A stretch of DNA of 10,128 nt, taken from the IMG/VR virus record IMGVR_UViG_2690316175_000004. The stretch is one strand, 5' to 3'. This document shows, piece by piece, positions 9,001-10,128 of the stretch. Every line of letters starts with the position of its first letter. Position 1 is the first letter of the stretch. The position numbers were made by a program. Origin of the DNA: a virus. Lineage: Duplodnaviria; Heunggongvirae; Uroviricota; Caudoviricetes.

Positions 9001-10128
9001 TACCGGAAAATGTCACCTGGTTATCCCCGGAAGGGGAGTTTCAGAAGTGGAACGGCACAGCCTGGGTGAAGGATACGGAAGCAGAAAAACTGTTCCGGAT
9101 CCGGGAGGCGGAAGAAACAAAAAACAGCCTGATGCAGGTAGCCAGTGAGCATATAGCGCCGCTTCAGGATGCTGTGGATCTGGAGATCGCAACGGAGAAA
9201 GAAACCTTGTTGCTGGAAGCTTGGAAAAAGTATCGGGTGTTGCTGAACCGTGTTGATACATCAACTGCACCGGATATTGAATGGCCAGTAGCACCTATAG
9301 GGTAAATTCGTAATGATTACCTAAATACGTTATTCTTTTGTTAAAAAAGTGATTTTGCTATAGGTAGGGAGTATGTTCTTGGATTAAGAATAAAAAATCG
9401 CCATGAAAGAGCTTCATGGCGAGTACATAAACGTACAAAATGTGATGAAAGTAGAGTGGCGTAAGCCACTATATTAAGATATGACAATAGCGAAGAAAAG
9501 TAAATAACATTTTATGGACGTTTAATNNNNNNNNNNNNNNNNNNNNNNNNNNNNNNNNNNNNNNNNNNNNNNNNNNNNNNNNNNNNNNNNNNNNNNNNNN
9601 NNNNNNNNNNNNNNNNNNNNNNNNNNNNNNNNNNNNNNNNNNNNNNNNNNNNNNNNNNNNNNNNNNNNNNNNNNNNNNNNNNNNNNNNNNNNNNNNNNNN
9701 NNNNNNNNNNNNNNNNNNNNNNNNNNNNNNNNNNNNNNNNNNNNNNNNNNNNNNNNNNNNNNNNNNNNNNNNNNNNNNNNNNNNNNNNNNNNNNNNNNNN
9801 NNNNNNNNNNNNNNNNNNNNNNNNNNNNNNTAATATAGTCACGCATGCAACTTGTTCCATGCGGAGATTAAAGATTGGAATATAACGCGAAGATGGAATT
9901 AAATTACATTTGCAATAATTAATTTATTATTACTCAATAATTACCGATATTATTATTGTAAATTAATCATTAGAATGCAAAAAGAAATGTAACGGCAAAA
10001 TAAGAGGACGATAGCTGAGAAAAAAGCGTGCTTTCCCAATCTGGGGCAAATCACGTCTGAATGACACCTGAAAACAGGTGGTAGCCTCAAGAAGGCTGGT
10101 GATGCTGCCAACTTACTGATTTAGTGTA

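What the first reader, a model, noticed from the sequence alone, without database searches (positions are those of the whole stretch)
9306..10097. Masked cargo locus downstream of tfa: minus-strand gene with its own terminator, AT-rich, bounded by IS1
After tfa the composition becomes markedly AT-rich, unlike the tail genes. A strong minus-strand intrinsic terminator sits at 9392-9421 and a minus-strand frame runs from about 9860 into the 304-nt N run, ending just upstream of that terminator. The region 9861-10000 is extremely AT-rich with inverted-repeat-like motifs, consistent with a promoter region for the minus-strand gene. In lambda the equivalent position (the b region after stf-tfa) carries opposite-strand accessory genes, and in related prophages it is a known insertion hotspot for morons, effectors and anti-phage defence genes. 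This is the only place in the window where an undescribed system could sit, but the gene body is unreadable, so its function cannot be inferred.
Basis: partly seen in the sequence, partly recalled or inferred. Interest (0 to 1): 0.6.

Follow-up and report, generated by a model that had tools for sequence, protein, structure and literature searches.

The report
Prophage yncL-like small membrane-protein gene
The unreadable stretch after the phage tail gene tfa is probably an ordinary assembly gap; in hundreds of near-identical prophages the same spot holds a never-annotated 33-codon gene for a tiny membrane peptide related to E. coli YncL, not a full-size cargo or defence gene.

Summary
The physical observations hold. 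Downstream of tfa the DNA drops to 31-34% GC. A strong minus-strand intrinsic terminator sits at 9398-9422. N fills 9527-9830, and IS1 begins at 10098. The long minus-strand frame does not hold: it is about 10 real codons plus about 101 N codons, and its ATG is missing in 12 of 29 distinct relatives. Relatives with flanks 99% or more identical carry 261 nt where the window has 304 N. That stretch contains no ORF longer than 37 codons. What is conserved is a 33-codon minus-strand ORF, MKIQSKLIVLLNIIIAFILFELLAQKFGLSTLF. It is a homologue of the small stress-response membrane protein YncL (hhalign 94%; Pfam YncL hit; NCBIfam 25 bits, below the cutoff of 35). It has a promoter-like site upstream and a highly structured 3' region that ends at the terminator. 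This roughly 550-bp block directly follows tfa in 813 of 5426 complete E. coli genomes, ahead of differing cargo, and was unannotated in every sampled record. My best reading is a prophage moron that encodes a YncL-like, possibly membrane-depolarising, peptide. A type I toxin-like RNA layer is possible but unproven. It is a new member of a known kind and of modest interest.

The parts
8724..9305 (+). tfa (tail fibre assembly gene). The conserved block begins at its stop codon.
   Evidence: 193-codon ORF. Annotated as tail fiber assembly protein in relatives. A neighbouring gene product in L165 hits Pfam Caudo_TAP.
9306..9890 (-). Conserved post-tfa block, about 545-590 bp in relatives and interrupted here by the N run. 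It carries the yncL-like ORF, its signals and a structured 3' region.
   Evidence: Alignment with L001-L008 shows homology ending near window 9887-9892, after which the cargo differs. 53 full copies at 91-100% identity. Present in 813 of 5426 E. coli genomes.
9388..9422 (-). Intrinsic terminator: stem-loop 9422-9398 and U-tract 9397-9388.
   Evidence: Terminator scan. The 10 stem pairs are 99.7% paired in 29 distinct copies. There is no U-tract on the + strand.
9389..9525 (-). Structured 3' region of the transcript: a 16-pair interrupted helix enclosing two hairpins, followed by the terminator. It could also be released as, or start, a roughly 135-nt sRNA.
   Evidence: Minimum free energy (MFE) -34.6 kcal/mol, and the MFE structure equals the centroid; z = -6.8 against shuffles. 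The + strand gives z = -6.2. 98.9% of cells are paired. All four pairs that vary on one side only stay as G-U on the minus strand, and these would be A-C mismatches on the + strand.
9455..9479 (-). 3' arm of a 25-nt imperfect inverted repeat. It contains the local hairpin 9455-9470.
   Evidence: the repeat finder I1 and I17 on L001. Pair counts.
9527..9830 (.). N run, probably a scaffold gap. In relatives the equivalent is 261 nt (L001 6278-6538). It holds the 33-codon yncL-like ORF (L001 6423-6322, minus strand), the promoter-like site TTGACT-17-TATTGT (L001 6486-6458, minus strand) and a lone TATAAT (L001 6288-6283, minus strand).
   Evidence: ORF homology.
9831..9852 (-). Readable part of the 5' arm of the inverted repeat (the full arm is equivalent to 9828-9852). 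It could pair with 9455-9479 and enclose the ORF if transcripts start upstream of it.
   Evidence: 23 pairs, 92% paired, one compensatory G-C to A-U change in 3 copies, three one-sided compatible changes.
9842..9863 (-). Local hairpin that overlaps the 5' arm and is an alternative to the long-range helix.
   Evidence: the repeat finder I13. 87% paired, two pairs changed on both sides, but broken in a group of about 10 copies. The ATG is lost in 12 of 29 copies.
9879..9884 (-). Candidate -10 element (TATATT on the minus strand) for a longer transcript. No convincing -35.
   Evidence: Read from the sequence. It is TAAATT in the divergent group. Not reported by the promoter scan.
9891..10097 (.). 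AT-rich left end of a separate cargo region, truncated by IS1. IS1-free relatives continue for about 750 bp to a YdeO/GadX-like AraC regulator.
10098..10128 (+). IS1 terminal inverted repeat (GGTGATGCTGCCAACTTACTGATTTAGTGTA...).
   Evidence: Sequence. IS1A transposase is annotated 25 bp further on in L001. The IS1-free junction is seen in L002-L004.

Best explanation
The N run is an assembly gap in a conserved block of about 550 bp that follows tfa in many E. coli lambdoid prophages. The block is a small, self-contained minus-strand transcription unit convergent with the late operon, that is, a moron. It has a sigma-70-like promoter (TTGACT-17-TATTGT), a short leader without a Shine-Dalgarno sequence, and a 33-codon ORF for a single-pass membrane peptide that is a paralogue of YncL. 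A 3' region of about 150 nt is strongly structured and ends at the intrinsic terminator at 9422-9388.

By analogy with chromosomal YncL, the peptide would insert into the inner membrane. When it accumulates it would partly dissipate the membrane potential and push the lysogen toward a low-activity, stress-like state. Late-operon read-through in the antisense direction would be expected to silence it during lytic growth.

Shown here: the block and its distribution, the ORF and its homology, the terminator, and the RNA-folding propensity.

Inferred: that the gap in this particular genome holds the same sequence, that the unit is transcribed and translated, that the peptide is in the membrane and depolarises it, and what it does for the phage or its host.
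For: Gap content:
- Both flanks match relatives at 99% or more and are collinear with them.
- Every relative seen has about 261 nt between the flanks.
- The gap estimate of 304 is close to 261 and far from what an IS insertion would give.

Gene:
- All 53 full copies keep the 33-codon ORF.
- 5 of the 7 variable sites in it are synonymous (p = 0.005 unweighted; 0.035-0.05 allowing for transition bias).
- The ORF and its immediate flanks are the least variable part of the block.

Homology to YncL:
- NCBIfam NF000537, E = 1.3e-5.
- BLASTP 11 of 28 identical, E = 2e-7.
- hhalign against 14 YncL sequences: 94.3% probability, E = 1e-7.
- Pfam PF28073 'YncL' is recorded on the peptide, marked weak, and on all named YncL proteins.
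- The Asn inside the helix and the K/R-F-G motif are shared.

Signals:
- Terminator.
- Conserved promoter-like site 9/12 with a 17-nt spacer.
- 3' domain with z = -6.8, whose one-sided changes give G-U on the minus strand only.

Function of the family: plasmid-expressed YncL depolarises the membrane and condenses the nucleoid, and yncL is heat-shock induced (PMC12542507).
Against: - The sequence in this window is not readable, and the gap length differs from relatives by 43 nt.
- There is no Shine-Dalgarno sequence before the ATG, whereas K-12 yncL has one.
- The NCBIfam score is below its curated cutoff (25 against 35 bits) and the Pfam hit is only 'weak'.
- There are only five ORF haplotypes, so the selection test is thin.
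- Promoter-like sites are no more frequent than in shuffled sequence.
- Rare frameshifted variants exist.
- I found no expression data, and neither PGAP nor the phage depositors call this ORF.
Confidence: 0.55

Rival explanations
1. A type I toxin-antitoxin-like module. The yncL-like peptide would be a conditional membrane toxin. Its mRNA would be held inactive by a hok-like long-range 5'-3' helix (arms 9828-9852 and 9455-9479) that alternates with local hairpins, and/or by an antisense RNA.
For: - Small hydrophobic ORF from a family that depolarises membranes.
- A 25-nt inverted repeat encloses the ORF.
- The 436-nt minus-strand RNA folds with this closing helix, z = -4.9.
- One compensatory change (G-C to A-U in 3 copies) plus three compatible one-sided changes; 92% paired against 25-49% in slid registers.
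- The same changed base is also compensated in the competing local hairpin, as expected for a switch.
Against: - No antitoxin sRNA could be identified. + strand promoter-like sites are weak, and the only + strand hairpin followed by Ts has 2 G-C pairs.
- The better promoter would start the mRNA downstream of the 5' arm, which excludes the long-range helix.
- All the compensation comes from one clade, so it is a single event.
- No Rfam type I family matches.
- Sequestration of the start codon appears in the MFE structure but not in the centroid.
- Toxicity is untested.
Confidence: 0.15
2. Mainly non-coding. The block would serve as a structured 3' end or sRNA locus, and as a terminator for minus-strand transcripts coming from whatever cargo lies to the right (for example sitABCD in strain MP1). 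The yncL-like ORF would be an untranslated relic.
For: - No Shine-Dalgarno sequence.
- The readable 137 nt fold with z = -6.8, and their wobble changes are minus-strand specific.
- A perfect TATAAT lies about 135 nt upstream of the terminator end.
- Minus-strand sitD ends about 250 bp upstream of the block in L006.
- ORF conservation could largely reflect recent common descent (block identity 91-100%).
Against: - Profile-level homology to a validated small protein over its whole length.
- Excess of synonymous changes.
- The ORF is intact in 53 of 53 full copies, although the flanking frames decay.
- No Rfam match better than E = 0.75.
- The lone TATAAT has no -35.
Confidence: 0.22
3. One reading: the gap hides a full-size minus-strand cargo gene (a defence system, effector or similar). 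A variant of this is that the gap hides a repeat or IS insertion that broke the assembly.
For: - The bases are unknown, and the N run is 43 nt longer than in any relative.
- IS1 has inserted independently inside this block in another genome (L008).
- The position after tfa does carry variable cargo.
Against: - 304 nt could hold at most about 100 codons, and the frame's start and end in the readable flanks are not conserved.
- Every one of 808 genomes with 80% or more coverage and 53 viral or metagenomic copies has the same roughly 261-nt content.
- PADLOC and PHROGs find nothing.
- An IS1 insertion would need a gap of about 1 kb.
Confidence: 0.05

Closest known systems
YncL of E. coli K-12 (b4598; NCBIfam NF000537, Pfam PF28073), a 31-residue stress-response small membrane protein
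   Same: - Length (33 against 31 residues).
- A polar or basic N-terminus, then one hydrophobic helix with a conserved Asn, Ala and Leu-Phe, then K/R-F-G.
- 38-39% identity over 28-29 residues; hhalign probability 94%.
- The same Pfam family is recorded on both.
   Different: - Carried on lambdoid prophages directly after tfa, not between patD and ortT.
- Below the NCBIfam equivalog cutoff.
- The invariant Trp29 and Gly18 are replaced, and the C-terminus is two residues longer.
- No Shine-Dalgarno sequence, and a long structured 3' region with a canonical terminator.
- No DNA-level similarity between the two loci.
Lambdoid-phage morons such as lambda bor and lom (named from my own knowledge of phage biology)
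   Same: A short, AT-rich unit at the end of the late region, with its own promoter-like site and terminator, convergent with phage late genes and dispensable-looking. It sits next to variable cargo.
   Different: It encodes a 33-residue peptide rather than a lipoprotein or a beta-barrel protein. Expression in lysogens has not been shown.
Type I toxin-antitoxin loci (hok/sok, ldr/rdl, tisB/istR, zorO/orzO)
   Same: A small hydrophobic membrane peptide, a highly structured mRNA, and a possible long-range 5'-3' helix with competing local hairpins.
   Different: No antitoxin RNA was found. There is no sequence or covariance-model match to any Rfam family. Toxicity is unknown, and the preferred promoter lies inside the helix-bounded segment.
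YohP, another E. coli small membrane protein
   Same: According to PMC12542507, YohP and YncL both cause sublethal depolarisation and nucleoid condensation. This is the functional analogy I use here.
   Different: No sequence relationship to YohP was tested or claimed.

Membership tests
YncL family (NCBIfam NF000537 equivalog) | Score at or above the curated cutoff (35 bits) | tested here: not met
   25 bits, E = 1.3e-5, profile positions 1-28 of 30. So it is a homologue, not an equivalog.
YncL family (Pfam PF28073) | Hit to the Pfam YncL model | tested here: inconclusive
   A precomputed hit is recorded on the peptide, marked 'weak' (E between 1e-5 and 1e-3). All named YncL proteins carry the same family. 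The local Pfam copy lacks this model, so I could not re-score it.
YncL family | About 30 residues, one transmembrane helix with the invariant Asn12, Ala16 and Leu22, and a C-terminal basic-Phe-Gly motif | tested here: met
   N12, A16, L22, F27 and G28 are shared. W29, which is invariant in YncL, is Leu here.
YncL family | Chromosomal synteny patD-yncL-ortT | tested here: not met
   The locus sits after the prophage tfa gene in every copy examined, against the K-12 context.
YncL family | Inner-membrane localisation, depolarisation on expression, heat-shock induction | not testable with these tools
   Known for K-12 YncL only (PMC12542507).
Type I toxin-antitoxin system | Small hydrophobic toxin ORF | tested here: met
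   33-residue peptide with one hydrophobic helix.
Type I toxin-antitoxin system | Antisense or divergent antitoxin sRNA with its own promoter and terminator | tested here: inconclusive
   Only weak + strand candidates. No Rfam antitoxin family matches.
Type I toxin-antitoxin system | Toxin mRNA locked by conserved long-range structure | tested here: inconclusive
   Helix of 23 pairs, 92% paired, one compensatory pair from a single clade. It requires an unproven upstream transcription start.
Type I toxin-antitoxin system | Growth arrest on toxin expression, relieved by the RNA | not testable with these tools
   Needs experiments.
   No PADLOC hit for the peptide. No ORF of 40 codons or more in the gap equivalent.
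Rho-independent terminator | G+C-containing hairpin followed by a U-tract on the transcribed strand | tested here: met
   11-pair stem (5 G-C) followed by TTTTTTATTC on the minus strand. Conserved.
IS1 | Terminal inverted repeat GGTGATGCTGCCAACTTACTGAT and an adjacent InsAB' gene | tested here: met
   The repeat is at 10098-10128. IS1A transposase is annotated at the same junction in L001. The empty site is seen in L002-L004.

The most novel reading that the evidence does not exclude
The block after tfa is a prophage-borne conditional membrane toxin. A YncL-like peptide would be made from an mRNA switched by a hok-like long-range fold, or silenced by antisense late transcription. Lambdoid prophages would use it to depolarise the lysogen, for example as abortive infection or superinfection exclusion, or to impose dormancy under stress. 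That would be a type I-like system built on the YncL family, present in about 15% of E. coli genomes and never annotated.
Probability: 0.15. Interest if true: 0.6.

Novelty: new member of a known kind. Interest (0 to 1): 0.3.

Why it matters
If it is real, a family so far known only as a chromosomal stress peptide (YncL) has a mobile, phage-carried paralogue. It sits at a fixed position after tfa in roughly one in seven complete E. coli genomes and is missed by PGAP and by the phage depositors. That would add a small-protein moron to lambdoid phage biology. It would also give a natural second member with which to study what YncL-type peptides do. For the scan itself, the main lesson is methodological: open frames that run through N runs are artefacts, and this 'masked cargo locus' does not hide a large unknown system.

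Tried and rejected
- tblastn of the peptide against the phage collection returned nothing, even for phages that contain it, so the low-complexity filter removes it and the result is uninformative.
- The search for homologous proteins needs 40 residues. I padded both peptides with their read-through codons.
- IMG/VR searches (by DNA and by protein pattern) and the metagenome scan gave only near-identical copies, five ORF haplotypes in all, so no deeper family or stronger selection test was possible.
- Rfam at permissive thresholds gave only noise: MicC E = 0.75, Esr41 E = 3.8.
- PHROGs, PADLOC and the local Pfam copy gave no hit.
- I considered a MITE-like mobile cassette bounded by the 25-nt inverted repeat. 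No copy was seen outside the post-tfa context, and the flanks as read show no obvious target duplication, though I did not search for one.
- The sitABCD prophage region of CFT073 lacks the block, so published CFT073 data cannot be used.
- Literature: the peptide string appears in no paper. A 2026 UPEC small-protein preprint could not be opened. The phage names led nowhere.
- A sigma-32 promoter resemblance was checked by eye and rejected because the spacing is wrong.

Full report
**What is in the window**

The window is the tail end of a lambdoid prophage. stf is at 5635-8724 and tfa at 8724-9305.

After the tfa stop codon the GC content falls from 54% to 31-34%. The composition tool's lower values count N as non-GC.

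N occupies 9527-9830, which is 304 nt.

One terminator-like site is found in 9200-10128. It is on the minus strand, with stem 9422-9398 followed by TTTTTTATTC. Shuffled sequence gives 0.2 such sites.

The last 31 bases, from 10098, are the IS1 terminal repeat. The closest complete genome has an IS1A transposase annotated at the identical junction. Three isolated phages show the uninterrupted site.

So the physical observations are correct.

**The long frame is an artefact**

The two minus-strand ORFs that the ORF lister reports across the gap are 9522-9860 (112 codons) and 9469-9846 (125 codons). They translate to ten and five real residues respectively, followed by about 100 X.

In relatives the first of these frames stops after 37 codons. 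Its ATG (window 9860-9858) is ACG or AAG in 12 of 29 distinct copies, and three copies carry a frameshifting insertion.

**What the N run is**

The window has two more N runs, at 330-362 and at 3075. The first is flanked by overlapping, 89%-similar sequence (180-317 against 363-500). The window also holds two J-lom copies. That is the signature of a scaffolded draft assembly of a genome with several related prophages.

I therefore read 9527-9830 as a sized scaffold gap rather than a deliberate mask. This is an inference. It would explain why the run is 304 nt while every relative has about 261 nt between flanks that are 99% or more identical.

**What relatives have there**

The sequence from the tfa stop to about window 9890 is a conserved block of about 545-590 bp:
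- It occurs in 813 of 5426 complete E. coli genomes, always on the chromosome, with up to 4 copies per genome.
- It occurs in 53 IMG/VR contigs and 21 metagenome contigs.
- It occurs in only three distinct phages among 50,697 phage records: mEp332, PhiR70_1 and ev099.

To its right the homology breaks and the cargo differs:
- a YdeO/GadX-like AraC regulator; this is the type in the window, cut by IS1
- sitABCD
- a short hypothetical gene next to ydfJ

No feature was annotated under the block in any of 40 sampled RefSeq genomes.

The 261-nt gap equivalent has no ORF longer than 37 codons.

**The conserved coding feature**

One ORF is kept in all 53 full copies. It is minus-strand and 33 codons long: MKIQSKLIVLLNIIIAFILFELLAQKFGLSTLF (L001 6423-6322).

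Evidence that it is related to YncL:
- It matches NCBIfam YncL at E = 1.3e-5. The score is 25 bits, below the equivalog cutoff of 35.
- It aligns to K-12 YncL (MNVSSRTVVLINFFAAVGLFTLISMRFGWFI) with 11 of 28 residues identical, E = 2e-7.
- It aligns to a 14-sequence YncL alignment with hhalign probability 94.3%.
- The protein database records Pfam PF28073 'YncL' on this peptide (marked weak) and on every named YncL.

Evidence bearing on selection:
- Seven sites vary in the ORF. Five are synonymous, and the two replacements are I18V and A24D.
- The excess of synonymous change has p = 0.005 if all substitutions are weighted equally, and 0.035-0.05 if transition bias is allowed for. With only five haplotypes this is suggestive, not strong.
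- The ORF plus about 45 nt on either side is the least variable part of the block.

Points against a working gene:
- There is no Shine-Dalgarno sequence, unlike K-12 yncL.
- Rare frameshifted variants exist.

**Transcription signals and RNA structure**

On the minus strand a conserved promoter-like site, TTGACT-17-TATTGT, lies about 30 nt upstream of the ATG. Such matches are no more frequent than in shuffled sequence, so this is weak evidence.

The terminator lies about 150 nt downstream of the stop codon.

The intervening region is readable in the window (9389-9525). It folds into a 16-pair interrupted helix enclosing two hairpins:
- MFE is -34.6 kcal/mol, the MFE structure equals the centroid, and z = -6.8.
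- The + strand folds almost as well, z = -6.2.
- Across 29 distinct copies, 98.9% of cells are paired. The four pairs that vary on one side only all become G-U on the minus strand, and these would be A-C mismatches on the + strand.

Together with the U-tract, this points to a structured minus-strand RNA.

Separately, a 25-nt imperfect inverted repeat brackets the ORF (arms equivalent to 9828-9852 and 9455-9479):
- A 436-nt minus-strand RNA folds with this closing helix, z = -4.9.
- The helix is 92% paired, against 25-49% in slid registers.
- It shows one compensatory G-C to A-U change and three compatible one-sided changes.
- The same changed base is also compensated in a competing local hairpin.

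This resembles the architecture of type I toxin mRNAs. However, all the compensation comes from one clade. The helix also needs a transcription start upstream of the better promoter-like site, and I found no antitoxin RNA.

**Most likely mechanism**

I commit to the following, at about 0.55.

The gap hides the same block as in relatives. The block is a moron: a lysogen-expressed, minus-strand unit that makes a YncL-like single-pass inner-membrane peptide.

YncL itself is a validated small protein induced by heat shock and minimal medium. When expressed from a plasmid it causes sublethal membrane depolarisation, nucleoid condensation and the phage-shock response (PMC12542507). It is also an RseP substrate in vivo (PMC10470546). 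By analogy, the prophage peptide would dampen membrane energisation when it accumulates.

Because the unit converges with the late operon, late transcription would be antisense to it. This last point is inference.

Rivals:
- a type I toxin-like control layer (0.15; a refinement of the best explanation rather than a contradiction)
- a mainly non-coding 3' end, sRNA or terminator block carrying a relic ORF (0.22)

**Comparison with what is known, and novelty**

The peptide works like, and is homologous to, YncL. It fails the equivalog tests: score cutoff, synteny, and two residues that are invariant in YncL. It is therefore best called a prophage-borne YncL-family paralogue.

I found no paper that contains the peptide string, and no annotation of the ORF in the sampled records. 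Only two automatic gene calls exist among 15 billion sequences.

I rate it a new member of a known kind. Interest is modest at 0.3. It would be higher (0.6) only if the toxin-switch or defence reading proved true, which I put at about 0.15.

**Limits**

- The bases in this window are unknown.
- I had no expression data.
- The diversity of the block is low.
- The local Pfam copy lacks PF28073.

Noticed in passing
window 1-5542 (N runs at 330-362 and 3075): There are two successive J-lom segments: J' 34-1788 with lom 1856-2455 and an stf-like start at 2477-2845, then J' 2932-4989 with lom 5060-5542. The two are 88-94% similar. The 33-nt N run is flanked by overlapping 89%-similar sequence. This is either a real tandem or hybrid of two prophage tail regions, or a scaffolding chimera.
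   Followed up: partly
window 9067-9265 (+): Rfam family IS009 (RF02111) matches at 218 bits entirely inside the tfa coding sequence. It is an sRNA-candidate family that coincides with a conserved tfa segment.
   Followed up: no
L004 4860-4925 (mEp332; about 120 bp beyond the point where IS1 cuts the window's version): A 3' fragment of a class-II tRNA ending in ...GGTTCAAATCCCCCTCTCTCCGCCA lies between the block and the AraC regulator. From memory it resembles tRNA-Ser(CGA). ARAGORN finds no complete tRNA. This suggests the regulator cargo was once an island integrated at a tRNA gene.
   Followed up: partly
L004 5497-6249; L002 and L003 5506-6249: In IS1-free relatives the cargo downstream is a 250-residue AraC-family regulator. 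Its best matches are YdeO (149 bits) and GadX, both below the equivalog cutoffs. It recalls the prophage-encoded acid-resistance regulators of EHEC (PatE, Psr), as listed in PMC10877973 (title and term counts from the search only; I did not read the paper).
   Followed up: partly
L008 about 2440-2500 (NZ_CP025856): An independent IS1 insertion lies inside the conserved block, between the promoter-like site and the small ORF. The AT-rich block therefore seems to be a recurrent IS1 target, in addition to the IS1 at window 10098.
   Followed up: no
L001 6288-6283 (minus strand; inside the window's gap): A perfect TATAAT with no recognisable -35 lies about 135 nt upstream of the end of the terminator. 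If it is active it would produce a separate small RNA that matches the strongly folding 137-nt region.
   Followed up: partly
proteins P0003 and P0005 (Logan assemblies): These are variants of the small ORF with a 1-nt frameshift near the C-terminus, which gives a 43-residue product ending ...FEYIILKQDKQYRAL. They could be real decay or sequencing error.
   Followed up: no
window 6000-7300 (+), inside stf: There is a strong A-over-T skew (0.31-0.46) with 57-64% GC across about 1.3 kb of the side tail fibre gene. This probably reflects a repetitive, compositionally biased domain.
   Followed up: no
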